The translations under genes were made by a program, and so were the position numbers. Positions 9,134-62,649 of a stretch of DNA of 64,000 bases are shown piece by piece. How positions within the stretch are numbered: the stretch's first letter is position 1; every line of letters starts with the position of its first letter. The stretch lies in NCBI GenBank assembly GCA_038880255.1, contig JAVZSA010000001.1:788-64787 (forward strand), written 5' to 3'. Origin of the DNA: Thermoplasmata archaeon. Lineage in GTDB: Archaea > Thermoplasmatota > Thermoplasmata > Thermoplasmatales > ARK-15. Under the pieces are notes generated by a model. The model saw nothing but the letters and a program-made list of their open reading frames with translations. It did not search any database and was not told the origin of the DNA.

Positions 9134-11065
9134 ATGATGGATATAGCTGAAGAGCTTGCAAAAAAACAAAAACAAATTTCAATTGCAGAATTCTTCGAAA
9201 AAAATAAACAAATTTTGGGTTTTGATTCACCACAAAAATCGTTGGTGATGGCGGTAAAGGAGGCTGTTGACAATTCACTTGATGCTTGCGAGGAAGCTCG
9301 AATACTTCCTGAAATCTATGTTGATATAAAAAGGGTGGATAAGGATGAATATCAACTTACTGTAGAAGATAATGGTCCTGGAATAATTAGAAAAGAAGTT
9401 TCAAAGGTATTTGGCCAATTTTTATATGGTTCAAGATTTCATACTGTGAGACAGAGTAGGGGCCAACAGGGTATTGGTATATCCGCCGTAGTATTATATT
9501 CACAACTCACCACAGGTAAGCCAACAAGGATTACATCAAAAATTGCTACAGAGGATGTTGGTTATTATTTTGAACTATTTATAGACACAAATAAAAATAT
9601 GGCAAATGTATTGAAGGAGGAACCTGTTATAATTGATAAAAAAAGTGGTGTAAAGATACAGGTAAATCTAAAGGGTAAGTATGTAAAAGGAAAACAAAGT
9701 GTTTTAGATTATCTTCAAAATACTGCAATTGTAAATCCACATGCGACCATAATATTTAGTGATCCAGATGGTATGAAGTTAAGATTTGAAAGGGCATGGG
9801 ACAAACCAATTGAACCACCAAAAGAAACAAAACCACATCCATTAGGTGTTGAAATTGGCGAATTAATGCATATGTGTTCTAAAACATCTGCAAAAAAATT
9901 AAAAACATTTCTTACAAATGAATTTAGTAGAATAAGCGATCATTTAGCTTTGGAGATATGCAAAATTTCAGGTATTAGTTGTGAAAGTGATCCTCATAAA
10001 TTGTCCTTGGATGAAATCAAAAAGATACAAGAATCCTTTAAAAAAGTAAAAATACTTCCTCCTTCCTTTGAATCTCTTTCACCCATTGGTGAAACATTAA
10101 TTAAGAAGGGATTAAAAAATGTATTAGGGGAATTAAAACCATCGTTCTATTCCATACCTATAACAAGAAAACCGTCAGTTTATTCTGGTAATCCATTTGT
10201 TGTTGAAGTAGGTTTAGTTTATGGTGGTTCAATACCCCATGATGAGCAGGTGAAAGTACTAAGATTTGCAAACAGAGTACCCTTATTATATCAAGCAGGT
10301 TCCTGTGCTCTTACAAAGGCAGTTGAAAATATTGATTGGAGAAAATATGGTTTGGAGCAGAGGGGGGGTGAAGGTCTTCCAATTGGCCCTATGATAATCC
10401 TCATACATCTTGGATCAACAAGGATACCATATACATCTGAGGCAAAAGAGGCAGTAGCAGAAATACCTGAAATAATGAATGAACTTGATTTAGCGTTAAA
10501 AGAATCTGCAAGACAGATTAAGGCTTTCCTTATAAAAAGAGAAGTAAAGGAAAAATTAACTGAGAAATTTTTCCTTGTTCAGAAAATATTACCAAAGATT
10601 GCAGAAAAAAGTTCAAAATTGTTGAATAAAGAAATACCAAAATTGGATCCTGTAATTACAAAAATAATGAATGTACTTTGGATAGAAGAGAATGTAGTTC
10701 AAAATGGTTCAAATGCAAAAATTCAGGTAAATGTTTCAAATTTTACCCCTGAAGAGAAGAGTTTTAAATTATATGCAGATTTGCCAGATGGTAAATTATT
10801 TGGAAAAATAGATCCATTTGGTGAATATGATCAAAATGAGGATTACATAATATGGAATGTGGAAAAATTAAGGCCAATGGAGAAACTAATTTTTACTTTT
10901 TCCCTCACTGATCTTAAGGGTGAATATGGAGAAACTGTATTTTACATTGAAGGTACAGATCCTGTACATGTTGTTGGGGCTGAACCACTACCAGGAGACT
11001 GGAATATTGATGCATTAAAATCTATTATTGAGGAAGAGGAGGAAGAAGAAAATGGAGAAGAGTAG
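9134..11065 (+). CDS. top6B: DNA topoisomerase VI subunit B
   Basis: Bergerat ATP-binding fold motifs ([21 protein letters not shown]). It lies immediately upstream of the Spo11-like subunit and has an acidic C-terminal tail. Confidence 0.9.
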
Positions 11066-12143
11066 ATATGAAAAGGCATTAGAATCATTAAAAAATATTG
11101 TTGAGAAAATATACGGAGATCTTTATAATGGAGAAATACCAACAATGGAACTACCTGCTAGAACCAAATATAACATAGAACTTGATTTACAAAAGGGTGT
11201 ATGGAAATATGGTAATGCAAAGATAACAAGATCAGCAAAAAAGATTGATGGTGCTTATACACTTTTAAGGACAATGTATATGATGGATTTTATAAGAGAA
11301 ATGATAGAACAGAGCAAATCATCAACACTTAGGGAACTTTATTATATTTCTGAGGGTTGGGATTTGGCAAAATTTCATACACAAGATGAATCAAATAGAT
11401 TAGCTGAAGATCTTGAGATTGTTACTAAATTCCTTAGAGAGGATTTTAAGCTTAGGCCAGAGGAGGATGGTGCGACAGTAATTGGTAATATAACCTTTGA
11501 GGAAATAAATAGGAAGGGTTTACCAAAGAAAATAAATTGTAGAGATGATGTGGGAGATGCTGGTTATGCAATACCCTATAATGTTGAAAAAGATAAGTTA
11601 AAGATATATGATTATGATGCCGATTTCGTTCTTGCGATTGAAACTGGAGGTATGTTTGATAGACTTGTTGAGAATGGATATGATGAAAAAGCAAGAGCAA
11701 TTCTAGTTCATTTAAAGGGACAACCAGCAAGGAGTACAAGAAGGCTTCTTAAAAGATTAAATGAAGAATTAAACCTTCCTGTTCTTGTTTTCACAGATGG
11801 GGATCCATGGTCATTTAGAATCTATGCAAGTGTTGCATATGGAGCAATAAAGACAGCGCATCTTTCAGAATATCTTGCCACCCCAACTGCTGAGTTTATT
11901 GGAATAACAGCAAGTGACATTGTTAATTATGAATTACCGACGGATAAATTGAATGAAAAGGATATAGCAGCTCTAAATGCTGAATTAACAGATCCTAGAT
12001 TTAATACACAGTTTTGGAAAAATGAAATAGAATTAATGCTTAAGCTTGGGAAAAAGGCAGAACAACAGGCCTTAGCAAAATACGGTTTAAACTATGTAAC
12101 TGATGTTTATTTACCAGATAAGGTATCGGAGTTAGGTCTATGA
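11052..12143 (+). CDS. top6A: DNA topoisomerase VI subunit A (Spo11 homologue)
   Basis: Toprim region ([26 protein letters not shown]) and a Spo11-like 5Y-CAP region (RELYYIS). I prefer the ATG at 11052 (MEKSRYE) over the ORF-track start at 11028, which lies in the acidic tail of top6B. Confidence 0.88.
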
Positions 12144-25735: not shown

Positions 25736-25819
25736 CGCCGCGGGGGAGATTTGAACTCCCGCTCCCTTTCGGGAACCAGCTCTCAAGGCTGGCGCCGTAG
25801 TCCACTTGGCTACCGCGGC
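25736..25819 (-). tRNA. tRNA-Ser (anticodon UGA), no encoded CCA
   Basis: Hand-folded cloverleaf. Acceptor GCCGCGG/CCGCGGC, anticodon stem CCAGC/GCTGG with loop CTTGAGA, long variable arm TTCCCGAAAGGGAGC, and T arm GGGAG-TTCAAAT-CTCCC. It is a GC-rich island in AT-rich DNA. Confidence 0.85.
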
Positions 25820-40328: not shown

Positions 40329-40336
40329 ATTATAAA
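40329..40336 (+). promoter_or_regulatory. Putative TATA box (ATTATAAA) with A-rich BRE-like upstream element, driving L41e and tRNA-Trp
   Basis: It is centred about 39 nt upstream of the ATG at 40372. An AGGTG Shine-Dalgarno-like element lies at 40362-40366. Confidence 0.35.
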
Positions 40337-40371
40337 CATTGACAGATTTTCCATTTACACCAGGTGTTAGA

Positions 40372-40479
40372 ATGAAGAGAAGTTCCAGAGTATGGAAAAA
40401 AAGAGGACAAATGCGATGGAAGTGGAGAAAAAAGAGAATGAGAAGGTTAATGCGCCAAAGGAGAGCCAATAAGAAATAG
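40372..40479 (+). CDS. rpl41e: 50S ribosomal protein L41e (eL41), 35 codons, absent from the ORF track
   Basis: It translates to [35 protein letters not shown]. The extreme Arg/Lys content and [10 protein letters not shown] core are characteristic of eL41. AGGTG lies 5 nt upstream of the ATG. Confidence 0.75.
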
Positions 40480-40480
40480 T

Positions 40481-40622
40481 GGGGGCATGGGGTAATCAGG
40501 TATCCTAGCGGGCTCCAGTTATGGAAATGATTCTCCAGAGGGTCAACTGAAGAAATGATGATTAACTGGAGCAATGATCCAGGAGTGACCCGCGGATCTG
40601 GGTTCAAATCCCAGTGCCCCCA
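40481..40622 (+). tRNA. tRNA-Trp (anticodon CCA) interrupted by a 69-nt intron at 37/38
   Basis: Acceptor GGGGGCA/TGCCCCC plus discriminator A, anticodon stem GCGGG/CCCGC, loop CTCCAG|intron|A, and T arm CTGGG-TTCAAAT-CCCAG. Exons are 40481-40518 and 40588-40622. Confidence 0.85.
40519..40587 (+). ncRNA. Box C/D guide RNA embedded in the tRNA-Trp intron
   Basis: C-like AAUGAUU (40526-32), D' CUGA (40547-50), C' AUGAUGA (40555-61) and D-like AUGA (40574-77). Guide UAACUGGAGC (40563-72) pairs with GCUCCAGUUA (40512-21) and puts the N+5 position on C34. Guide GGGUCA (40540-45) pairs with UGACCC (40586-91) and puts N+5 on C39. Confidence 0.7.
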
Positions 40623-40761
40623 TACTTTTGGATTATGCTGTCAAATGTGATTATTTGTCAATTTATTTTAATAATTTAAATAAACACATTTTAAAAAATC
40701 ATTTAAAAATTATTATTATGATTTTTTTGAATAAATTTAAAATAAAGATGAAAAATAAAAG

Positions 40762-47739: not shown

Positions 47740-49242
47740 TTAGATTTTATATTTATAAATCAAAGTTTTACATAATTCTAAATTTTTTCTCGCATTTTCA
47801 AAATCTTTGTCCAAAGAAATTGCACTTTCATATTGTTTTATCGCCTGTTCAAGAAAATTTTTCCTTTTTTTCTTATCCTTTTCAATTAATGCCATTTTTC
47901 TATAGCAGTCCCCCATCCCAGCATATGAATATTTTAGTGATGGATTTAAAGATATAGATTCCTCATACTTTTTGATTGCCTTCTCTAAAAATTCCATTTT
48001 TTTATTTAAATTATTTTCAATATTGGCTAAGTCTAGTAATCTATTTCCCATATTATGATATGGAAATGAAAATAGTGGATCATATGAAATGGATTTGTCA
48101 ATTTCTTCAATCGATTTATAAATGTACATTTTTTTCTTTTCTTTGTTTTTAATATTTTTACTCATAAGTGCATAACAAATTGAGAGACCATTATATGATA
48201 AGGAATATTTACTATTTATTGATAAAGCATTTTCAAAATTTTTAATAGCATTTTTTAAATATTTATCCCTTTTTTCATTGTCACTCTCTATTTTATATAG
48301 ATCAATGAATACATTTCCAATACCATTATACGCATGAATAAACTCCCCATCAGTTTTTATACATTTTTCAAATTCTTCTAATGAAATTTTCAAGAATTCA
48401 ACTTTTTCATCTTTATTGACAGTAATTCTTGACATTTCTAAATATCCTTCAGCCTTTCCATTATGCAGATATGTATTAAGAGGATCAAGATTAAGACCCA
48501 AATTAAAATAATCTAGAGCCTTTTTAATTAAATCAATCTTTTTGTCTTTACCACTTTTATTTTTAAAAATTTCTAAATAGGCATTTCCAAGTCCTACATA
48601 ATTTTCAACAATTCTTTCATCCATTTTCATTGATTTTTCATACTCTTTAATTGCCATTTCAATATTCTTTAATCTTTCATTTTCGTTCCTATTGAATCTT
48701 GATAGTATCAAGTACACGTTACCTTTGCCATTATGTGCTAGAGGATCATCATAAAATTGTATTAATAAATCATATTCTTGCAAAGCATTCAAAAGAAGAA
48801 TATTTTTTGAATTTAAACTAAATTCAAGTTTTGACAGTTCATAGTAACAATTACCTTTACCATAAATAGCAATCCTAATTTTTGGATCTATTTCACATAC
48901 ATCTGAAAAAATTTTCAGTGCATTTTCAAAAAATTCTTTCCTTTTTTCTATTTCATTTTCAAGAAGACCGAATTGATATAGACATTCGCCCTTTCCTGAA
49001 TACAATAATGGAAAATCCTTATTTAAAGAAATACCATTCTCAAATTCTTTTAAGGCTAAATCTAATAAACCTTTTTTTCTAATTCTATTATTCTCAATCT
49101 TTACTTCTTTTAATAAAATGACTCCTTTTAAATAATTGGAGAAATAAAGTTCATTATTTATGGCTAGTGAATTGTTCAATTCTTTTAAAGCACTTTCTAA
49201 CAATTCTTTTTTCTTACCTAAAGAAATTACACTTTTTTCCAA
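47740..49242 (-). CDS. TPR-repeat protein (fragment 4 of a split NTPase-TPR gene, TTG start)
   Basis: Many TPR-like repeats (..Y.GKG.CY...G....A...F..A..I.P..). The reading frame stays open 54 nt upstream of the called TTG start and overlaps the end of the preceding ORF. Confidence 0.7.
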   Translation of the reverse strand: MEKSVISLGKKKELLESALKELNNSLAINNELYFSNYLKGVILLKEVKIENNRIRKKGLLDLALKEFENGISLNKDFPLLYSGKGECLYQFGLLENEIEKRKEFFENALKIFSDVCEIDPKIRIAIYGKGNCYYELSKLEFSLNSKNILLLNALQEYDLLIQFYDDPLAHNGKGNVYLILSRFNRNENERLKNIEMAIKEYEKSMKMDERIVENYVGLGNAYLEIFKNKSGKDKKIDLIKKALDYFNLGLNLDPLNTYLHNGKAEGYLEMSRITVNKDEKVEFLKISLEEFEKCIKTDGEFIHAYNGIGNVFIDLYKIESDNEKRDKYLKNAIKNFENALSINSKYSLSYNGLSICYALMSKNIKNKEKKKMYIYKSIEEIDKSISYDPLFSFPYHNMGNRLLDLANIENNLNKKMEFLEKAIKKYEESISLNPSLKYSYAGMGDCYRKMALIEKDKKKRKNFLEQAIKQYESAISLDKDFENARKNLELCKTLIYKYKI

Positions 49243-49253
49243 TTCATATATTG

Positions 49254-50105
49254 CTATTGCCTTAAGTATGTATGAATCAAAGAATATGTGATTTTTTCAA
49301 TTGAAATATCAAATTCTTTTATTGCATTTTCAAAATCCCCTTTTTCCAAATGATTAGCACCAGCAAAAAAATGGTAAAATTCATCATCATTACTTGAGAC
49401 TGAATTATTTATATATTCAAGAATTTTTAAATTTGTATTCTCCATTAAATTTAATTTATGAAGGGAATTGAAATAAGAAATTATTATTTTTCCTTCTGGT
49501 GATTCTCTACCATACTCCTTAAAAATGAACGGAATAGAATAGAAATTTTTATCATTTAAAGACATTAATAATGGAGTGTAAGCATAACTTCCTTTTCCCT
49601 TTTCTTTTAATAATGCTAGAGGTGTGAGATAAGAATAAATATATTCAAGGCTAGGTAAAATTTTGGGAAGAAGTTTTAATGAACTAACACCATTGGTAAT
49701 TAGAGTATACCAAATAACAAGGTTAATGTTATCTTTAAAGTATGGAATTTCCATATTATTAATTAAATTTTTTACATAGGATTTTGCTTCCTGAGCTATT
49801 TCATTAATATATGATACGAAATTCTGAAATTCTAAAATATTTTTTTTCAATTCTTCTGAAATTTCTTGTGGAATTATATATTCACCATCAATTTTTTCAA
49901 AAATTGATGTATCAATATTAAAATTTTTAATTATAATTTCATCAATTGGAAATTTAGTACCAATGTATATAATAAGTAAATTTATTTTATTATATTTATT
50001 TAGTATATGTTCAATATAATACTTTTTAGCATCTATTTCCAACAAATTAATTAATTCTGAAGGATTAATTTCTTCTAACATAATTGAAAAAGTCTTACAA
50101 AACAA
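49254..50105 (-). CDS. Hypothetical helical protein (fragment 3 of split gene)
   Basis: The frame is open upstream of the called TTG start as far as 50297, overlapping the stop of the preceding ORF. The C-terminal residues (GANHLEKGDFENAIKEFDISIEK) already look TPR-like. Confidence 0.6.
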   Translation of the reverse strand: MFCKTFSIMLEEINPSELINLLEIDAKKYYIEHILNKYNKINLLIIYIGTKFPIDEIIIKNFNIDTSIFEKIDGEYIIPQEISEELKKNILEFQNFVSYINEIAQEAKSYVKNLINNMEIPYFKDNINLVIWYTLITNGVSSLKLLPKILPSLEYIYSYLTPLALLKEKGKGSYAYTPLLMSLNDKNFYSIPFIFKEYGRESPEGKIIISYFNSLHKLNLMENTNLKILEYINNSVSSNDDEFYHFFAGANHLEKGDFENAIKEFDISIEKITYSLIHTYLRQ

Positions 50106-50281
50106 ATAAATTTCTGATATTGTATTAAAATGAAATTTATCTATAAATCCCCCTTCTTCAAATAAATTCCATTTTTCTTCAGGTAAAATTAACCTTAAAA
50201 ATTTTAAAATTAAATCTTTGGTATAATCTTGCCATTCAAAAAGAACTACATGATTCCCTGTACTGTTTAATAAATAAAATT

Positions 50282-50902
50282 TTATGGGTCCAAAAATTCA
50301 ATTAATTTTAAATTCAAATTATATGAAGAGTCAACAATTGAAATTAAATTAGGTATAGGATATTCAGGTATGTAATTTTTTGTAATTATTAAAGAATCTT
50401 GCATTAACCAATTCATAATACCTCTGTGTTTTTCTTTCAAAAAAATTGATTTTTTAAAATATTTCTTTAAAATTAAACTGATAAATATTATATTATCTAC
50501 TCTATTCTCAGATTTGAGAATTATTGTACCCTTTTGAAGAATATCCCATGATTTTTCAATGCTTGGGGCTATTAGATTATCAATATCTTCAATTAATTTT
50601 TCAAATAATGGTACATTACCTAATAAATTTATAGATTCATTAAAATTCAATTCCATAATGGAATTTTTTAAATTCATTGTTAAATTTTTGACAAAACTAT
50701 CAAGCTTTTCAAGAATAAAATCAAAGTTGTTAAGTGAATTTAGACAATCATAGACATTATTTCTATCAATTTTTAACTCTAAAGAAAATTGAGAAGACAA
50801 AATATGCTTATAATCATCAATCAAATTTTTCCAGTCTTTAATGAATTCTTTAAATTTTTCCCCATAATTTAAGCCATAATCATGATAAAATAAGAGGATC
50901 AA
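50282..50902 (-). CDS. Hypothetical helical protein (fragment 2 of split gene)
   Basis: The frame is open upstream of the called TTG start as far as 51013, overlapping the stop of the P-loop ORF. Confidence 0.6.
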   Translation of the reverse strand: MILLFYHDYGLNYGEKFKEFIKDWKNLIDDYKHILSSQFSLELKIDRNNVYDCLNSLNNFDFILEKLDSFVKNLTMNLKNSIMELNFNESINLLGNVPLFEKLIEDIDNLIAPSIEKSWDILQKGTIILKSENRVDNIIFISLILKKYFKKSIFLKEKHRGIMNWLMQDSLIITKNYIPEYPIPNLISIVDSSYNLNLKLIEFLDP

Positions 50903-50988
50903 TGAAATTAAAATTTTGTCACAATTTCTATTTGTTTTTAAATTTATTGCTGAAACAATATTCTTTAATTCTCTAATTTCAGAATCAT

Positions 50989-51540
50989 TTAAAAAGGAAT
51001 TGCATTTATAAATTCATTTGAATGGAGACCAAGATTCTGAAATTTTAAATAATCTACCAATTTATTATATATTTTCCTTTGTTTTTCAATTTCCAAATCA
51101 TCATATTCTAGTAGGCCAGGTAAAATATAGTTTATTCCCATCCATGATATAGTTATTTCTTTAAAATTATCACCCTTTATTGCATATATTAAACCCTTTT
51201 TTTTATTTATATTTTCAATTTGATTTAATAATTCTTCAGGAATCATTTTTATATCAAAATTACCGCTATTAACAAAATTTTTTATTTTAAAGATACTAAT
51301 ATTTTTTCCCGGATTTTTTATAATATCTTCAATATCCCTATCTTGATTTATTAAACCAAAAGTGAATTCATCTAAAGATAATTTCTTAAATTTTTTCTTA
51401 ATATCATTTATAAAATATGTTTTGCCGGATCTTGGGGGTCCTATTAAATATTTTATATGATATTTATTTATCAAATTTAAAAAATTATTCTGTTCAGAAA
51501 TTAGAATTCTTTTTAATTCCTCAATTTTCTCTAAATTCAT
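50989..51540 (-). CDS. P-loop NTPase domain protein (fragment 1 of split gene)
   Basis: Walker A GPPRSGKT follows an N-terminal helix. A candidate Walker B strand is GLIYAIKGD. Confidence 0.65.
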   Translation of the reverse strand: MNLEKIEELKRILISEQNNFLNLINKYHIKYLIGPPRSGKTYFINDIKKKFKKLSLDEFTFGLINQDRDIEDIIKNPGKNISIFKIKNFVNSGNFDIKMIPEELLNQIENINKKKGLIYAIKGDNFKEITISWMGINYILPGLLEYDDLEIEKQRKIYNKLVDYLKFQNLGLHSNEFINAIPF

Positions 51541-51621
51541 CTTAATTATTTAATAGTTAATCTTTATATAAATAGTTTTTTCTGACAAAATTTTTTAATT
51601 ACATTATAATCCCAGGATATA

Positions 51622-53253
51622 ATGGAAAACATCCTAAGAAAATATGCAATAATCGAGGTGGGGATTCTCCTCATAGTTGCATTTTATGCAATTTTTCCAG
51701 CAAATCTTGTTCTTACTGTTTGGCAATATGCTCTTTTTTCATTCCTTAGGATGTTAGTAGCGTATATAATTTCCCTTATATTTTCAATACTTTATGGATT
51801 GTACGCTGCAACAAATAAAAAAGCAGAAAAAATTATGATTCCAATCTTGGACATACTTCAAAGTGTTCCTATTCTTGGTTTTTTTCCAATTGTGATATTT
51901 ATTTTAATAATGTATCTCCCTTCCAGTATAGGTGCAGAAATAGCATCAATTATACTTATTTTTACAAGTCAAGCTTGGAATATGGCTTTTGGTGTTTATG
52001 AAAGTATTATTACAATACCTGAAGAATTGAGGATTGCATCCAATGCATTTAAACTTAAGGGAATAATAAGATTCAGATATCTTTATTTTCCTTCAATGAT
52101 TCCAAGGCTAATATACAATAGCATGATGTCTTGGGCGGGCGGTTGGTATTTTCTTTTTGCCGCAGAAATAATATCGGTGGGTAATCTAACTTATACTTTG
52201 CCAGGTTTGGGATCTTTTATGTGGAGAATGGTAATGAGTGGTGAGATATCTTACGGTTTACTCGCACTATTTACACTTGTTTTAATAATTGTTTTAATGG
52301 ATATTTTGTTTTGGAGACCTCTATCAAAGGTATCTGAGAAATATAAGTATGAAAGTTTATCGGAAGAGCAGATTGAAAAGAAATTTTATTTGGCTAAACT
52401 TCTTAATTATTTACCGTCCCTCGATTTCATGGTAAGTATTTTTAAAAAATTATCTTTTAGAAATAGAAAGTTTAGAGTTTTTTCTTGGATTTGGAAATAT
52501 AAAAAGTATATACTTTACTTTTTCTTTTCTCTGTTATTAATCTTCATTTTTTACGCACTTTTTATATCAATTGAACATGGCATAAATTTTGAAATTTCAA
52601 GCAATGATATTTTTATTGTTCCAATTGCATTATTCTATTCCATTTTAAGACTTTTGATAGCTTATTTACTCTCACTGGCTTGGATAATCCCACTTGCAAT
52701 ATACCTTAAATCACATAAAAATTCAGAGAAATGGTTGAATCCATTATTTGAAATTCTTGCTTCAATACCTGCTACAGCACTTTTCCCATTCTTCGTTCTT
52801 ATATTTATAAAAATGCCTTTTGGTACAAACATTGCTTCCATACTTTTAATAATGACCGGTATGCAATGGTATATTCTTTTTAATGTACTCTCAGGTATAA
52901 GGACTTTCCCTGCTGATTATGATACAGTATCAAGGGCATTTAGGTTCAAAAAGTGGCAGTATATAAGGAAGGTACTTTTACCGGGAATATTTGCGCCACT
53001 TTTAACTGGTAGCATTACCGGATGGGGAGGGGGATGGAATGCATTAATAGTATCTGAATACATAATAATTAATGGAACTGTTTATTCAGTCCTTGGAATA
53101 GGATATTTAATAGATTACGCTACTTATGTAAAGGGTAACGTTTTTCTAAATATTTTCTATGTTGTTATATTGAGCTTAACCGTGGTAATTTTAAATAGAT
53201 TGTTTTGGAGAAGATTATACCTTAGGGCGGAAAGGTATGCCTATATCTCTTAA
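51622..53253 (+). CDS. ABC transporter permease with duplicated transmembrane domains (anion/NitT-TauT-like)
   Basis: Two tandem BPD-type permease modules, each with an EAA-like loop region (ELRIASNAFKLKG, DYDTVSRAFRFKK). No ATPase or binding-protein gene is adjacent. Confidence 0.7.
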   Translation: MENILRKYAIIEVGILLIVAFYAIFPANLVLTVWQYALFSFLRMLVAYIISLIFSILYGLYAATNKKAEKIMIPILDILQSVPILGFFPIVIFILIMYLPSSIGAEIASIILIFTSQAWNMAFGVYESIITIPEELRIASNAFKLKGIIRFRYLYFPSMIPRLIYNSMMSWAGGWYFLFAAEIISVGNLTYTLPGLGSFMWRMVMSGEISYGLLALFTLVLIIVLMDILFWRPLSKVSEKYKYESLSEEQIEKKFYLAKLLNYLPSLDFMVSIFKKLSFRNRKFRVFSWIWKYKKYILYFFFSLLLIFIFYALFISIEHGINFEISSNDIFIVPIALFYSILRLLIAYLLSLAWIIPLAIYLKSHKNSEKWLNPLFEILASIPATALFPFFVLIFIKMPFGTNIASILLIMTGMQWYILFNVLSGIRTFPADYDTVSRAFRFKKWQYIRKVLLPGIFAPLLTGSITGWGGGWNALIVSEYIIINGTVYSVLGIGYLIDYATYVKGNVFLNIFYVVILSLTVVILNRLFWRRLYLRAERYAYIS

Positions 53254-53902: not shown

Positions 53903-55858
<1,956 letters not shown>

Positions 55859-55868
55859 GGTGGATGGA

Positions 55869-58265
55869 ATGTCAAATGTTCAAACAAAGACAATAGAAGA
55901 AGAAATGAAATATTCTTACATGGATTATGCTATGAGCGTCATAGTGGGAAGGTCTTTGCCAGATGTGAGGGATGGTTTAAAACCTGTTCAAAGAAGGATA
56001 CTTTATTCAATGTACGAGATGGGTCTTACACATGATAAACCTTTTAGGAAATGTGCTAGGATAGTGGGTGAAGTGATGGGTAAATATCATCCTCATGGTG
56101 AGGCACCAATATATGATGCTCTTGTAAGGATGGCACAACCATTTTCTCTCAGGTATACCCTCGTTCAAGGTCAAGGAAATTTTGGAAGTGTGGATGGTGA
56201 TTCACCTGCGGCCATGAGATATACTGAGGCAAGGATGGAAAGACTTGCTGAAGAAATGCTTGAGGATATAGAAAAGGAAACAGTACCAACGATGCAAAAT
56301 TTTGATGGAACACTAAATGAGCCAATATATTTACCATCAAAGGTACCAAATCTTCTCATAAATGGATCTTCAGGTATAGCTGTAGGAATGGCTACAAATA
56401 TGCCTCCTCATAATATTTCAGATACAATAGACGCAATAATTCATTACATAAATCATAGGGATTGTACCATTGATGAATTAATAGAGATTATTAAGGGTCC
56501 AGATTTTCCAACAGGTGGTGTAGTATTCAATTATTCAGGTCTTGTTGAAGCATATAAAACTGGAAAGGGAATGATAAAAATAAGGGGAAGATATGAAATT
56601 CATGAGAGGGACATTATTTTTACTGAAATACCATATGAAGTAAATAAATCAGAACTTTTAAAAAATATTGGAAGTCTTGTTAAGGATGAGAAAATAAGTG
56701 GTATACAGGGAATTAGGGATGAAAGTAATAAAGAGGGAATAAGAATTGTGATAAGACTGAAAAAAGATGCAAATACTGATATAGTTCTAAATCAATTACT
56801 TGAGCATACCCAGCTTGAAGTATCCTATGGAATAATAAATCTAGCATTAATTGATAATGTTCCAAGAATTTTCAATTTGAAAGAATTAATTTCAGAATTT
56901 GTAAAACATAGGTTTGGTGTAATAACTAAAAAAATTAAATATGATCTAAGGAAAGATGAAGAAAGGGAGCACATACTTCAAGGTTATATTATCGCCTTAG
57001 ATCATCTCGATGAAGTTATTAATACGATCAGATCATCCAAAGATTATGGTGAGGCAAAGGAAGCATTGATTAAAAATTTTAATATGAGTGAAATACAAGC
57101 TAAAGCTGTGCTAGATCTAAGGTTGCAGAGATTAACAGCAATGGAGAGGGAATCGATTATTAGAGAGGAGGAAGAGATTAGAAAGGAAATAGAGAGGTTA
57201 AAGGATCTACTTTCTCATGAAGAAAAAATCTATGATCTAATGGTTAAAGAGTTGTTGGACCTTAAAAAAAGATATGGTGATTCAAGAAAAACAGAAATAA
57301 TGAAGGAAGAATTGGGTAGAAGAGACATTGAAGATCTCATACCCCCAGAAAACTTTGTTGTAACATTTACCAAGGGGGGATACATAAAGAGAATTTCTAT
57401 GGATGAATATAGGTCCCAAGGAAGAGGTGGAACTGGAGTTATAACAGAATATGGGGAAGAGGATTTTCCTGTTCAGGTATTCATAGCGAACAGTCATGAT
57501 AATTTGCTCTTTTTCACAAATAAGGGAAGGGTATATTCATTAAAATGTTATAAAATAGTACAAACATCCAGAAAAGCAAGTGGTAAGAATATAAAAAATT
57601 ATATAGAACTCGATGAAAATGAGGTAGTGGAAAGAATACTTCCAATTAATGAAAAATCTGAGGGAAATATAGTATTTCTCACAACAAAAGGGATTGTAAA
57701 GAAAACATCATTAAAACATTTTATTAATATTAGATCCAGAGGTATTATTGCAATTTCGTTGGATGGAGATACAATAAAAGATGTTTGCTTGGCAAAAGAT
57801 GATGAAGATATTTTCATATTCACTACGAATGGCCAAACTGTAAGATTCCCATCAAAAGAATTGAGAGAGATGGGTAGGATAAGTCATGGAGTGAGAGGTA
57901 TAAAGATAAGGGAAGGTGATAGTGCACTTTCAATCTCATCTGTTAAACCTGATGATTTAATCCTTACAGTAACAGAGCTTGGCAGAGGAAAAATAACAAA
58001 GGTAGAAATGTTCAGAAGAACACATAGAGGGAAAATAGGGATTAGGGGCCAAAGAATCAATGATAAGACTGGAAAACTTGCAGGAGCAATAAAAGTTGTA
58101 GAAAATGATGTAATAATGTTACAGACAATAAAGGGAATGACAATACAGTTTTCACTTAGTGAAATACCAGAGCTAGGTAGAAATGCATCAGGTGTAAAAT
58201 TAATCGATCTAAAGGAAAATGATAAGGTGGGGGCGATTACAAGAATTCCATCATTTGATGAATGA
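55869..58265 (+). CDS. gyrA: DNA gyrase subunit A
   Basis: DGLKPVQRR, the active-site region AAMRYTE, and C-terminal beta-pinwheel repeats. The start is at 55869 after GAGGTGGA. The ORF-track TTG start is 55848. Confidence 0.92.
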   Translation: MSNVQTKTIEEEMKYSYMDYAMSVIVGRSLPDVRDGLKPVQRRILYSMYEMGLTHDKPFRKCARIVGEVMGKYHPHGEAPIYDALVRMAQPFSLRYTLVQGQGNFGSVDGDSPAAMRYTEARMERLAEEMLEDIEKETVPTMQNFDGTLNEPIYLPSKVPNLLINGSSGIAVGMATNMPPHNISDTIDAIIHYINHRDCTIDELIEIIKGPDFPTGGVVFNYSGLVEAYKTGKGMIKIRGRYEIHERDIIFTEIPYEVNKSELLKNIGSLVKDEKISGIQGIRDESNKEGIRIVIRLKKDANTDIVLNQLLEHTQLEVSYGIINLALIDNVPRIFNLKELISEFVKHRFGVITKKIKYDLRKDEEREHILQGYIIALDHLDEVINTIRSSKDYGEAKEALIKNFNMSEIQAKAVLDLRLQRLTAMERESIIREEEEIRKEIERLKDLLSHEEKIYDLMVKELLDLKKRYGDSRKTEIMKEELGRRDIEDLIPPENFVVTFTKGGYIKRISMDEYRSQGRGGTGVITEYGEEDFPVQVFIANSHDNLLFFTNKGRVYSLKCYKIVQTSRKASGKNIKNYIELDENEVVERILPINEKSEGNIVFLTTKGIVKKTSLKHFINIRSRGIIAISLDGDTIKDVCLAKDDEDIFIFTTNGQTVRFPSKELREMGRISHGVRGIKIREGDSALSISSVKPDDLILTVTELGRGKITKVEMFRRTHRGKIGIRGQRINDKTGKLAGAIKVVENDVIMLQTIKGMTIQFSLSEIPELGRNASGVKLIDLKENDKVGAITRIPSFDE

Positions 58266-61626: not shown

Positions 61627-62649
61627 CTATGAAGAAATATTTTCTATCATTTCCCTCAATTCCTCTTTTTTATCTAACCTTTCCCTCACAGGTTTTAAAA
61701 TTTCTATCAATAATTCCGATATATTTTCTTTTAAATCAAGTGGATGAATCTCTTTTTTCGAATATAATGTTTCAAGTTCATTGTAATTTTTTACTATTAT
61801 TTCACCACCATATTTTCTTTCTATTTTTACCTCATTTTTATAATATGGGAATATTATGAATTTGTAAATTTCAAGAATGGGGTTGTTTGAAACCTCTCCC
61901 TCTGGACAAAATGCACCTCTAATCTTAGATCTTATTATTTCAGGAGAATCTGTTACGAAAATAGCACCCTCACCCTTGCTTTTGCTCATTTTGAATGAAA
62001 AATCCATCCTGTTTCCTCCCTTTAAATTTGTAAGCAAGGGTGTATGTATCGCTACAGGAACTTTAAAGCCCAATTTAGGGGCAAGATCTCTTGCGAGCAT
62101 ATGGGCATGCCTTTGATCCATGCCACCAAGTGCTATGTCAAGATCCATAAAGAAAATATCTGTTACCTGCATAAACGGATAGATCATTTTTGAGGTATCA
62201 AGATCAAGGTCAGAACTTTTTCTTCCCATTATATCGAGGGCACGCCTTACCCTGTTTAAAGTGGTATTTTTCGCCACCTTAAGTAATATTGACCAATATT
62301 CTTTACCATCCACTAATTCTTCAGCATAAATAAATTGAACATTTTCAGGTACTCCTATTGCCAGAAATGATTCTTTCATTATTTCTGCTGCCATTTTAAT
62401 CTTTTCCATATTACCATTAAATTTATCATTTATGAAAGCGTGCCAGTCGGCTAAAAGTACTCTCATTGAAACATTTTCTTCTGCTAAATCCCTTATTTTG
62501 TTTCCACATATCAAACCTGTCCCAAGATGAACTAGTCCAGAAGGTTCAAAACCTATATAACCCTTAAGATTTTTTCTATCTGAAATAGATTCAAGATCTT
62601 CAGGAGTAACTATTTCCTGAACATTCTTTTTTATTCTTTCAATATTCAT
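61627..62649 (-). CDS. tyrS: Tyrosyl-tRNA synthetase, archaeal type
   Basis: It is colinear with remembered M. jannaschii TyrRS: YIGFEPSG..HLG, LLADWHA, YPFMQV.D, GGMDQR..HMLARDL, KMSKSKG, HPLDLK. Confidence 0.85.
   Translation of the reverse strand: MNIERIKKNVQEIVTPEDLESISDRKNLKGYIGFEPSGLVHLGTGLICGNKIRDLAEENVSMRVLLADWHAFINDKFNGNMEKIKMAAEIMKESFLAIGVPENVQFIYAEELVDGKEYWSILLKVAKNTTLNRVRRALDIMGRKSSDLDLDTSKMIYPFMQVTDIFFMDLDIALGGMDQRHAHMLARDLAPKLGFKVPVAIHTPLLTNLKGGNRMDFSFKMSKSKGEGAIFVTDSPEIIRSKIRGAFCPEGEVSNNPILEIYKFIIFPYYKNEVKIERKYGGEIIVKNYNELETLYSKKEIHPLDLKENISELLIEILKPVRERLDKKEELREMIENISS

What the first reader, a model, noticed from the sequence alone, without database searches (positions are those of the whole stretch)
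40481..40622. tRNA-Trp intron carries a box C/D guide aimed at positions 34 and 39 of its own tRNA
The 69-nt intron (40519-40587) sits at the canonical 37/38 site.
- Its box motifs are AAUGAUU, CUGA, AUGAUGA and AUGA, in C, D', C', D order.
- The 10-nt guide UAACUGGAGC, upstream of the D-like box, is perfectly complementary to GCUCCAGUUA. That target spans the anticodon loop and the first intron bases, and the fifth paired base upstream of the box is opposite C34.
- The guide upstream of D' (GGGUCA) pairs with UGACCC across the 3' splice junction and places the fifth base opposite C39.
- The same residues also form the central 4-bp helix of a bulge-helix-bulge. C32-C35 pairs with 40582-40585, flanked by bulges AG|U and UG|A. 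Methylation and splicing conformations are therefore mutually exclusive.
- Self-targeting tRNA-Trp introns are documented in Euryarchaeota (Haloferax, Pyrococcus and others). Finding one here supports the taxonomic placement.
- This example is unusually compact, with a non-canonical AUGA D box and only a 6-bp D' guide.
Basis: partly seen in the sequence, partly recalled or inferred. Interest (0 to 1): 0.6.

Follow-up and report, generated by a model that had tools for sequence, protein, structure and literature searches.

The report
tRNA-Trp intron box C/D guide
This is an archaeal tryptophan tRNA gene whose intron is a small guide RNA that most likely directs methylation of two sugars in its own anticodon arm before being spliced out, a mechanism known since 2000-2001 and seen here in an uncultured hot-spring Thermoplasmatota archaeon.

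Summary
Window 40481-40622 (+) is a tRNA-Trp(CCA) gene with a 69-nt intron (40519-40587) at the canonical 37/38 site.

- **Boxes:** C AUGAUUC, D' CUGA, C' AUGAUGA, D AUGA.
- **D guide:** a 10-bp guide places C34 opposite the fifth nucleotide upstream of box D.
- **D' guide:** a 6-bp guide does the same for C39.
- **Relatives:** comparison with 55 related pre-tRNA-Trp sequences shows covariation in the D-guide duplex and the terminal stem. Box C position 6 and box D position 1 are U/A in 40 sequences and G/C in 16, with no mixed cases.
- **Family:** Rfam sR3 (RF01133) is this intron family. It matches Archaeoglobi and Aciduliprofundum introns above threshold, but the window reaches only 23 bits against 41.

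So this is the documented tRNA-Trp intron guide in its Thermoplasmatota form.

- The intron is not unusually compact, since the archaeal median is 65 nt.
- AUGA is the clade norm.
- A short D' duplex is the clade norm.
- Guide-bearing Trp introns also occur outside Euryarchaeota.
- ARAGORN's "Arg CCU" call is a splice-register artefact.

In passing: a ribosomal protein L41e gene ends 1 nt before the tRNA.

Verdict: a new member of a known kind, of low interest.

The parts
40481..40518 (+). tRNA-Trp 5' exon (G1 to G37, with one extra D-loop nucleotide). It has G10.U25 and U13.U22 in the D stem.
   Evidence: Rfam tRNA model, 46.4 bits. Sequence read. The G10.U25 and U13.U22 pairs are described as a tRNA-Trp feature in PMC13520502.
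40515..40517 (+). Anticodon CCA. C34 (40515) is the predicted target of the D guide.
   Evidence: The C34 pair is C-G in 55 of 56 relatives.
40519..40587 (+). 69-nt intron at the canonical 37/38 position, which is also a box C/D guide RNA.
40523..40525 (+). 5' strand (GGA) of the terminal stem closing the C/D kink-turn. It pairs with 40578-40580.
   Evidence: All 3 pairs covary in alignment A1 and 93.9% of cells are paired.
40527..40533 (+). Box C variant AUGAUUC (consensus RUGAUGA). U40532, at position 6, pairs with A40574.
   Evidence: In the tool-based count the pair is U-A in 33 sequences and G-C in 11, 100% paired.
40533..40539 (+). CUCCAGA, an exact copy of the mature anticodon loop (positions 32-38) inside the D' spacer. 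It pairs with the D guide in the predicted fold.
   Evidence: Minimum-free-energy folds. The 6-bp duplex is -8.4 kcal/mol. CUCCAG is kept in most of the closest relatives.
40540..40545 (+). D' guide GGGUCA, pairing with 40586-40591. G40542 is the fifth nucleotide upstream of D'.
   Evidence: The D' spacer 40534-40546 is 13 nt.
40547..40550 (+). Box D' CUGA.
40555..40561 (+). Box C' AUGAUGA (consensus), 4 nt after D'.
40563..40572 (+). D guide UAACUGGAGC, pairing with G31 to intron nucleotide 3 (40512-40521). G40569 is the fifth nucleotide upstream of box D.
   Evidence: The duplex is -15.2 kcal/mol. The helix is 97% paired, with 3 covarying pairs. The D spacer 40562-40573 is 12 nt.
40574..40577 (+). 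Box D variant AUGA (consensus CUGA).
   Evidence: AUGA occurs in all 40 Thermoplasmatota-type sequences and CUGA in 16 others. The choice always matches box C position 6.
40578..40580 (+). 3' strand (UCC) of the terminal stem.
40582..40585 (+). GGAG, the intron strand of the 4-bp central helix of the splicing motif. It pairs with C32-C35 (40513-40516).
   Evidence: The C34 pair is Watson-Crick in only 5 of 44 relatives, the window included.
40588..40622 (+). tRNA-Trp 3' exon (A38 to A73). C39 (40589) is the predicted target of the D' guide. CCA is not encoded.
40626..40629 (+). TTTT run just after the tRNA, a likely transcription stop.
   Evidence: Read from the sequence. This is an inference only.
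40372..40479 (+). Context: a 35-codon gene for ribosomal protein L41e/eS32 that ends 1 nt before the tRNA. It is a probable co-transcript, with a TATA-like TTATAAAC at 40330-40337.

Best explanation
The locus is the tRNA-Trp(CCA) gene of an uncultured Thermoplasmatota archaeon. Its 69-nt intron is a dual-guide box C/D small RNA, homologous to the tRNA-Trp introns of Haloferax and Pyrococcus and to Rfam sR3.

Proposed steps:
1. The gene is probably transcribed together with the L41e gene just upstream (inferred).
2. In the precursor, L7Ae binds the terminal kink-turn, which is formed by box C AUGAUUC, box D AUGA and the stem GGA/UCC. It also binds the internal C'/D' kink-loop. Nop5 and fibrillarin then assemble on it (inferred from the known family).
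3. The 12-nt D spacer pairs over 10 bp with G31 to intron nucleotide 3 and positions C34 for 2'-O-methylation. The D' spacer pairs over 6 bp across the 3' splice junction and positions C39. Both pairings are shown by sequence and covariation. The methylation is inferred.
4. Both duplexes include intron bases, so the substrate must be unspliced pre-tRNA. The guide may sit on the same molecule, on another precursor, or on the excised (probably circular) intron. This is unresolved here.
5. The same exon bases, C32-C35 and C39-C41, then refold into the anticodon stem and the 4-bp helix of the bulge-helix-bulge. The splicing endonuclease cuts after G37 (40518) and after G40587, giving the loop CUCCAGA.

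The non-consensus U at box C position 6 and A at box D position 1 replace the usual G-C pair with U-A, so the kink-turn should still form.
For: - **tRNA:** Rfam tRNA model, 46.4 bits over 40481-40622.
- **Geometry:** guides, boxes and the fifth-nucleotide rule were read directly from the sequence and are far beyond chance.
- **Tool-based counts on alignment A1 (44 sequences):** the D-guide duplex is 97% paired with three covarying intron-side pairs. All three terminal-stem pairs covary. The box C position 6 / box D position 1 pair is U-A in 33 and G-C in 11, never unpaired. Every slid control drops to 35-51% paired.
- **Register-anchored count on 56 distinct sequences:** D-guide positions 2 to 11 are paired in 45-56 of 56. 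D'-guide positions 3 to 7 are paired in 52-56 of 56. Position 2 of the D' guide switches between U-A and A-U. Box combinations are 40 U/A and 16 G/C, with none mixed.
- **Family link:** Rfam sR3 hits the introns of Archaeoglobi tRNA-Trp genes at 62-66 bits and Aciduliprofundum at 45-49 bits. It aligns to the window intron end to end at 23 bits, E 8.5e-4.
- **Conformers:** the splicing and guide conformers have similar computed stability, -34 to -37 kcal/mol.
- **Literature:** the tRNA-Trp intron guides methylation of positions 34 and 39 in Haloferax, and the intron is a stable circle (PMC3326292, PMC4090602, PMC7994747). Hori's review lists 'Cm34 and Um39 (or Cm39)' made by L7Ae, Nop5, fibrillarin and the intron guide (PMC6313347).
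- **Sequence reliability:** the identical pre-tRNA is present in six independent assemblies.
Against: - There are no RNA or modification data for this organism.
- The D' duplex is only 6 contiguous pairs, 5 in most relatives. That is below the 8-9 bp usually required for a credible archaeal guide (PMC6009581).
- Box C matches the consensus at only 5 of 7 positions, and box D at 3 of 4.
- The D' spacer is 13 nt rather than the usual 12.
- The window scores below Rfam's threshold for sR3 (23 against 41 bits).
- In the predicted fold, the D guide is sequestered by an intron-internal copy of the anticodon loop.
- No fibrillarin, Nop5 or L7Ae gene lies in the 64-kb window, so the machinery is assumed from general knowledge of archaea.
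- The U-A swap probably reflects one evolutionary event, not many.
Confidence: 0.8

Rival explanations
1. Half-active guide. The terminal C/D unit directs Cm34, but the D' pairing is too short to direct methylation of C39. It would instead serve only to hold the 3' junction or help folding.
For: - The D' duplex is 6 bp in the window and 5 bp in most Thermoplasmatota.
- Guide predictions are usually accepted at 8-9 bp or more (PMC6009581).
- The window's D' spacer is 13 nt rather than 12.
Against: - The GGGUC core is invariant, and CUGA (or CCGA) always lies exactly 5 nt from the base opposite position 39, in all 56 sequences.
- Position 2 of the guide covaries with intron position -2 (U-A or A-U in 21 of 56).
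- Archaeoglobi, Thermococci and the closest relatives extend the same duplex to 7-10 bp.
- Methylation at 39 is experimentally documented for the homologous intron (PMC4090602, PMC6313347).
- Pairing within one molecule can tolerate a shorter duplex.
Confidence: 0.15
2. Relic intron. The boxes have decayed (AUGAUUC, AUGA) and no ribonucleoprotein forms. The complementarities would persist only because they shape the precursor for splicing.
For: - Box C and box D both depart from the consensus.
- The score is below Rfam's sR3 threshold.
- In Sulfolobus, consensus boxes are reported as absent from the tRNA-Trp intron (PMC3326292).
- The Haloferax intron is dispensable for viability (PMC4090602).
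Against: - The two departures are exactly complementary (U6 with A1) and are fixed across 40 sequences with no mixed state. This is the signature of selection on the kink-turn, not decay.
- C' and D' are consensus.
- The G.A-forming UGA cores are invariant in alignment A1.
- Guide length and register are conserved while the intron-side bases covary.
- The D-guide duplex is not part of the splicing fold and in fact competes with it.
Confidence: 0.04
3. It is a tRNA-Arg(CCU), as ARAGORN in intron mode reports, with the intron removed two bases earlier on each side.
For: ARAGORN -i reports Arg (cct) with a 69-nt intron.
Against: - ARAGORN uses the same shifted register for every relative. There it yields Trp(CCA), because those introns end in AG. 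Only the window and L092, which end in UG, become 'Arg'.
- The shifted cuts would fall inside the 4-bp helix rather than in the bulges.
- The exons are 85-93% identical to Thermoplasmatota tRNA-Trp genes.
- They carry the tRNA-Trp D-stem signature G10.U25 and U13.U22 (PMC13520502).
- Both guides are centred on a CCA-reading frame.
Confidence: 0.01

Closest known systems
Box C/D intron of euryarchaeal pre-tRNA-Trp (Haloferax volcanii; Pyrococcus abyssi sR50; Omer et al. 2000, Clouet d'Orval et al. 2001, Singh et al. 2004)
   Same: - The host gene and the intron position (37/38) are the same.
- The box order is the same: C, D', C', D.
- The D guide targets C34 and the D' guide targets position 39. 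This assignment is from my recollection of Singh et al. 2004. The held papers confirm only the two target positions (PMC3326292, PMC4090602, PMC7994747).
- Both duplexes span an exon-intron junction, so the substrate is the unspliced precursor, and the guide and splicing folds exclude each other.
   Different: - Position 39 is C rather than U, as in the 'or Cm39' of PMC6313347.
- The intron is 69 nt, against 105 nt in Haloferax.
- Box C is AUGAUUC and box D is AUGA, with a U-A pair in place of G-C.
- The D' duplex is only 6 bp.
- There is no experimental evidence for this lineage.
Rfam RF01133, 'Small nucleolar RNA sR3'
   Same: - The window intron aligns to the model end to end, with all four boxes and both guides (GGGUC, UGGAGC) in register.
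- The family's true hits in my loci are tRNA-Trp introns of Archaeoglobi and Aciduliprofundum.
   Different: - The window scores 23 bits against a threshold of 41.
- The four other Thermoplasmatota loci tested with the AUGA variant (L079, L054, L103, L050) also fall below threshold.
Sulfolobus solfataricus tRNA-Trp intron (65-nt stable circle; Danan et al. 2012, PMC3326292)
   Same: It is an intron of similar length with short complementarities to positions 34 and 39 and non-consensus boxes.
   Different: - The window keeps consensus C' and D' boxes and a recognisable, compensated terminal C/D pair.
- The Sulfolobus intron is reported to lack consensus C and D boxes.
- It belongs to a different phylum.
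Free-standing archaeal box C/D sRNAs that target tRNA wobble positions (for example Pyrococcus guides for tRNA-Leu and tRNA-Met, cited in PMC7994747)
   Same: They have the same ribonucleoprotein architecture and the same fifth-nucleotide rule, and they target position 34.
   Different: They are independent genes acting in trans on mature-type sequence. Here the guide is the intron of its own target, and it needs intron bases in the duplex.

Membership tests
Intron-containing archaeal tRNA-Trp(CCA) | Cloverleaf that passes the tRNA covariance model | tested here: met
   Rfam RF00005 scores 46.4 bits against a threshold of 29, model positions 1-71, with the insert in the anticodon loop.
Intron-containing archaeal tRNA-Trp(CCA) | Anticodon CCA after removal of an intron at 37/38 | tested here: met
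   - This follows from the helix and bulge geometry.
- It also follows from homology with 55 relatives.
- ARAGORN's CCU call uses a register that gives CCA in all relatives whose introns end in AG.
Intron-containing archaeal tRNA-Trp(CCA) | Bulge-helix-bulge: a 4-bp helix flanked by two 3-nt bulges that carry the cut sites | tested here: inconclusive
   - The 4-bp helix CUCC/GGAG and the 3-nt 3' bulge (U, G, A38) are present.
- The 5' site lies in a 5-nt bulge in the predicted fold.
- It becomes a 3-nt bulge only with a lone U40520-A40581 pair, which costs about 2-5 kcal/mol.
Archaeal dual-guide box C/D sRNA | Box C RUGAUGA and box D CUGA near the ends | tested here: not met
   - Box C is AUGAUUC (5 of 7 match) and box D is AUGA (3 of 4 match).
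- The UGA cores needed for the G.A pairs are intact.
- The two changes at box C position 6 and box D position 1 are mutually compensating: U-A in 40 sequences, G-C in 16, none mixed.
Archaeal dual-guide box C/D sRNA | Internal C' and D' boxes | tested here: met
   C' is AUGAUGA and D' is CUGA, separated by 4 nt. Both are conserved in relatives.
Archaeal dual-guide box C/D sRNA | Terminal stem closing the kink-turn | tested here: met
   GGA 40523-25 pairs with UCC 40578-80. All 3 pairs covary and 93.9% of cells are paired.
Archaeal dual-guide box C/D sRNA | Spacers of about 12 nt between the boxes | tested here: inconclusive
   The D spacer is 12 nt. The D' spacer is 13 nt in the window and its closest relatives, and 12 nt in other Thermoplasmatota.
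Archaeal dual-guide box C/D sRNA | Guide-target duplex of at least 8-9 bp, with the target opposite the fifth nucleotide upstream of D or D' | tested here: inconclusive
   - The D guide meets this: 10 Watson-Crick pairs, with C34 at the fifth position.
- The D' guide has the correct register for C39 but only 6 bp.
- The threshold is taken from PMC6009581.
Archaeal dual-guide box C/D sRNA | Assembly with L7Ae, Nop5 and fibrillarin, and actual 2'-O-methylation | not testable with these tools
   None of these genes lies in the 64-kb window. No RNA or modification data are available.
Rfam RF01133 sR3 | Score at or above the curated threshold of 41 bits | tested here: not met
   The window scores 23 bits, E 8.5e-4, in a 501-nt search. 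Archaeoglobi score 62-66 bits and Aciduliprofundum 45-49 bits.

The most novel reading that the evidence does not exclude
In this sub-clade of hot-spring Thermoplasmatota, the intron carries an exact copy of the mature anticodon loop (CUCCAGA, 40533-40539) inside the D' spacer. This copy pairs with the D guide in every predicted fold. It could act as a built-in decoy that keeps the guide closed until the ribonucleoprotein assembles, or that silences the excised intron. Together with the clade-wide U-A rewiring of the terminal kink-turn, and co-transcription with the Trp-rich ribosomal protein L41e, this would make the locus a regulated, self-timing maturation unit rather than a plain guide intron.
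Probability: 0.08. Interest if true: 0.45.

Novelty: new member of a known kind. Interest (0 to 1): 0.2.

Why it matters
As biology it confirms a textbook case. The tRNA-Trp intron that guides methylation of its own anticodon arm extends, in recognisable form, into uncultured hot-spring Thermoplasmatota.

Its practical value lies in annotation:
- The default Rfam scan and default ARAGORN miss this gene.
- ARAGORN in intron mode misnames it Arg(CCU).
- Rfam sR3 does not reach the five Thermoplasmatota-variant introns I tested (the window and four related loci).
- Such genomes can therefore appear to lack tRNA-Trp and its guide.

The clade-wide swap of G-C for U-A between box C position 6 and box D position 1 is a natural compensatory test of the kink-turn model.

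Tried and rejected
- **tRNA finders.** Default ARAGORN and the gathering-mode Rfam scan of the whole window found only tRNA-Ser at 25736-25819. The Trp gene appeared only in the local E-value scan. ARAGORN's Arg(CCU) call was considered and rejected.
- **Primary papers.** I tried to read Clouet d'Orval 2001 (PMC92551), Bortolin 2003 (PMC275556) and Hirata 2019 (PMC6779453). None is held. What I say about the D-to-34 and D'-to-39 assignment, and about trans action, rests on my recollection of Singh et al. 2004 plus the reviews that are held.
- **Organism name.** A literature search for the assembly accessions returned nothing, so the organism is placed only by similarity.
- **Thermoplasma literature.** Searches for a Thermoplasma-specific description of this intron, or of the AUGA variant, found nothing in the held library. 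I cannot say whether the U-A swap has been noted before.
- **Genome scan.** A targeted metagenome scan supplied the close relatives.
- **Outer helix.** I first thought the window's 3-nt shorter tail had destroyed an outer helix that is present in the 72-nt relatives. The predicted folds of those relatives do not form that helix either, so I dropped the claim.
- **Machinery.** A Pfam scan of 50 ORFs in the window found no fibrillarin, Nop5, L7Ae, splicing endonuclease or RtcB.
Full report
**1. What is in the sequence**

Window 40481-40622 on the + strand reads as a pre-tRNA. Rfam's tRNA model aligns it end to end at 46.4 bits (threshold 29), with a 73-nt insert in the anticodon loop.

My reading is as follows:
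- Exon 1 is 40481-40518 (G1 to G37, with one extra D-loop base).
- The intron is 40519-40587 (69 nt).
- Exon 2 is 40588-40622 (A38 to the discriminator A73; CCA is not encoded).
- The anticodon CCA is at 40515-40517.

The intron contains these elements:
- Box C AUGAUUC at 40527-33.
- A 13-nt spacer.
- Box D' CUGA at 40547-50.
- A 4-nt linker.
- Box C' AUGAUGA at 40555-61.
- A 12-nt spacer.
- Box D AUGA at 40574-77.
- A terminal stem, GGA 40523-25 paired with UCC 40578-80.

- The D-spacer bases 40563-72 (UAACUGGAGC) are perfectly complementary to 40512-21 (G31 to intron base 3). G40569, the fifth base upstream of box D, faces C34.
- GGGUCA at 40540-45 pairs with 40586-91 across the 3' splice junction. 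G40542, the fifth base upstream of D', faces C39.

**2. More than chance**

I ran 100,000 dinucleotide-preserving shuffles of the intron.
- A duplex of at least 10 bp covering C34 arose in 0.07% of shuffles.
- A duplex of at least 6 bp covering C39, with NUGA at the right distance, arose in 0.18%.
- A lenient joint criterion was met in 0.004%.

The precursor also folds more stably than its shuffles, with a z-score of -4.1.

**3. Which tRNA, and where the intron is**

ARAGORN in its default mode misses the gene. In intron mode it reports Arg(CCU), with a 69-nt intron shifted 2 nt to the left at both ends.

Run on 16 relatives, ARAGORN uses the same shifted register everywhere. There it returns Trp(CCA), because those introns end in AG. 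Only the window and L092, whose introns end in UG, become "Arg". The shifted cuts would also lie inside the 4-bp helix rather than in the bulges.

Several other lines agree that this is tRNA-Trp:
- The exons are 85-93% identical to Thermoplasmatota tRNA-Trp genes.
- The D stem has G10.U25 and U13.U22, described as a tRNA-Trp hallmark in PMC13520502.

I conclude that this is tRNA-Trp(CCA) with the intron at 37/38.

**4. The splicing fold**

The predicted fold contains the anticodon stem, the 4-bp helix C32-C35 with 40582-85, and a 3-nt bulge (U40586, G40587, A38).

On the 5' side the predicted bulge is 5 nt (A36, G37, U, U, A). It is closed by UGGA/UCCA. The strict 3-nt bulge needs a lone U40520-A40581 pair and is 2-5 kcal/mol less stable. 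The motif is thus canonical on the 3' side and relaxed on the 5' side.

In 39 of 44 aligned relatives, the C34 position of the central helix is a C.A mismatch. The window is one of five with a full Watson-Crick helix.

**5. Who the organism is**

- The neighbouring acyl-CoA dehydrogenase, and the identical pre-tRNA, occur in six assemblies that I take to be hot-spring metagenome genomes, judging from isolate names of the same accession series.
- The window has about 31% G+C. It carries archaeal housekeeping genes, including topoisomerase VI together with gyrase A and B.
- The best exon matches (93%) are a Thermoplasmataceae genome (L103) and two Thermoplasmata genomes (L042, L019). Oxyplasma meridianum (L079) is at 92%.

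The placement is therefore Thermoplasmatota, which is Euryarchaeota in the older sense.

**6. Comparative test of the guide model**

Alignment A1 holds 44 distinct precursors: the window, 34 Thermoplasmatota and 9 Archaeoglobi. On the guide conformer:
- The D-guide duplex is 97% paired.
- Its three intron-side pairs covary: U-A/C-G, U-A/C-G/G-C and A-U/G-C.
- All three terminal-stem pairs covary.
- The slid controls fall to 35-51% paired.

A register-anchored count on 56 distinct sequences included close relatives from a metagenome scan. It gave:
- D-guide positions 2 to 11 paired in 45-56 of 56. The C34 pair is C-G in 55 of 56.
- D'-guide positions 3 to 7 paired in 52-56 of 56.
- D'-guide position 2 paired in 21 of 56, in two forms. 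The window, L128 and L092 have intron U with guide A. Eighteen sequences have intron A with guide U.

The D' duplex is therefore real and in register, but short. It is 5 bp in most Thermoplasmatota, 6 bp here, and 7-10 bp in most Archaeoglobi, the Thermococcaceae loci and some of the closest relatives.

**7. The "non-canonical" boxes**

All 40 Thermoplasmatota-type sequences have U at box C position 6 and A at box D position 1. All 16 others (Archaeoglobi, Aciduliprofundum, Thermococci) have G and C. No sequence is mixed (the tool-based count is U-A 33, G-C 11).

In the kink-turn formed by boxes C and D, these two bases pair just beyond the two G.A pairs and the U.U pair. That is my knowledge of the motif, not a result obtained here. 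The AUGA box D is therefore a compensated, clade-wide variant, probably from a single evolutionary event. It is not a defect or a peculiarity of this locus.

**8. Relation to known families**

Rfam RF01133 (sR3) proved to be this very family. It hits the introns of Archaeoglobi tRNA-Trp genes at 62-66 bits and those of Aciduliprofundum at 45-49 bits. It aligns to the window intron end to end, with all boxes and both guides in register, but at only 23 bits against a threshold of 41. The four other AUGA-variant Thermoplasmatota loci in that scan also fell below threshold.

The literature held here says the following:
- The tRNA-Trp intron nests a box C/D RNA that selects positions 34 and 39 for 2'-O-methylation in Haloferax.
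- The excised intron is a stable circle.
- The archaeal median length of these introns is 65 nt (PMC3326292, PMC4090602, PMC7994747).
- PMC6313347 lists "Cm34 and Um39 (or Cm39)" made by L7Ae, Nop5, fibrillarin and the intron guide.

From memory of Singh et al. 2004, the C/D unit guides C34, the C'/D' unit guides position 39, the reaction works in trans, and it is sequential. The window's arrangement matches this.

**9.

- The intron is not unusually compact. The archaeal median is 65 nt, Thermoplasmatota relatives have 65-69 nt, and only the nearest relatives have 72-74 nt.
- The AUGA box and the short D' guide are clade norms.
- The C34 guide (YUGGAGC) is also present in sampled Bathyarchaeia, Desulfurococcales, Sulfolobales, Nitrososphaeria and Hadarchaeota introns, mostly with degenerate terminal boxes. 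Presence of the feature alone does not indicate Euryarchaeota.

**10. Mechanism and confidence**

Shown by sequence and comparison:
- The gene identity and the splice sites.
- The box architecture.
- Both duplexes in the correct register.
- The mutual exclusivity of the guide and splicing folds. C32-C35 and C39-C41 are used in both, and the two folds have similar computed stability.

Inferred from the family:
- Binding of L7Ae, Nop5 and fibrillarin.
- Methylation of C34 and C39 on the unspliced precursor.
- Refolding, cleavage, ligation, and circularisation of the intron.

Open:
- Whether the guide acts in cis or in trans.
- Whether a 6-bp D' duplex suffices.

I put the overall model at 0.8. 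A version in which only C34 is methylated gets 0.15.

**11. Features specific to the window's sub-clade**

The window and its closest relatives share box C AUGAUUC, a 13-nt D' spacer, and a copy of the anticodon loop (CUCCAG) in that spacer. L129 has CUCUGG instead, and L135, which has slightly different exons, lacks these features. The loop copy pairs with the D guide in all predicted folds. This could be incidental, or it could be a decoy. It is the basis of the low-probability novel reading.

**12. Verdict**

The finding is a new member, in uncultured Thermoplasmatota, of a system described in 2000-2001. Interest is low, apart from its use for annotation and as a natural compensatory variant of the kink-turn.

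Noticed in passing
window 40372-40479 (+), with TTATAAAC at 40330-40337: A 35-codon ORF ([35 protein letters not shown]) matches archaeal ribosomal protein L41e/eS32 chains from solved ribosomes (6skf_Bk and 6sw9_0, E about 2e-6 to 4e-6, residues 1-33). Pfam scores it below cut-off and NCBIfam has no hit. Its stop codon ends 1 nt before the tRNA, so the two are probably co-transcribed. A same-strand L41e gene lies upstream of tRNA-Trp in 25 Thermoplasmatota genome loci, directly adjacent in most and about 200-760 nt away in six. It is also present in 11 metagenome loci, and in none of the Archaeoglobi or Thermococci loci.
   Followed up: partly
window 40481-40622: Standard annotation would lose or misname this gene. 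The gathering-mode Rfam scan of the whole window and default ARAGORN both miss it, although it scores 46.4 bits locally. ARAGORN in intron mode calls it Arg(CCU).
   Followed up: yes
L128-L139 (metagenome contigs with exons identical or nearly identical to the window's): The closest relatives carry 72-74-nt introns, and the window is 3-5 nt shorter in the tail between UCCA and GGAG. Most share AUGAUUC, CUCCAG and a 13-nt D' spacer. Several have a longer D' duplex (UGGGUCU, up to 8 bp).
   Followed up: partly
L033, L047, L058, L062, L091 (Thermoplasmata genomes): This subclade has D' = CCGA together with C' = AUGAAGA, GUGAAGA or AUGAGGA. It may be a second co-change, at the U.U position of the internal kink-loop.
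   Followed up: no
L009-L126, non-euryarchaeal loci (for example L013, L049, L072, L083, L095): tRNA-Trp introns of Bathyarchaeia, Desulfurococcales, Sulfolobales and Nitrososphaeria keep the C34 guide (YUGGAGC). Most also keep a GGAUGA-like C' box and a GGGUYU guide followed by a CUGA-like D' box. They mostly lack recognisable terminal C and D boxes.
   Followed up: partly
L012, L035, L041, L048, L055, L089, L095, L111, L116, L123: In these Thermoproteota and Bathyarchaeia loci, the sequence 5' of G29 is not tRNA-like (it ends in ...TAAGGGCTCCAG or similar). This suggests an additional intron or a split or permuted tRNA-Trp.
   Followed up: no
window 48000-52000: The G+C content drops to 23-24%, against about 31% elsewhere. 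Three ORFs there (49254-50105, 50282-50902, 50989-51540, all on the - strand) have no Pfam match. This may be a foreign or fast-evolving segment.
   Followed up: no
window 9134-12143 and 53918-58265: Topoisomerase VI (B and A subunits) and DNA gyrase (B and A subunits) are both encoded. This is consistent with the Thermoplasmatota placement.
   Followed up: no
window 61627-62649 (-): A class I Trp/Tyr-type aminoacyl-tRNA synthetase (Pfam tRNA-synt_1b) lies about 21 kb from the tRNA-Trp gene. I did not determine whether it is TrpRS or TyrRS.
   Followed up: no
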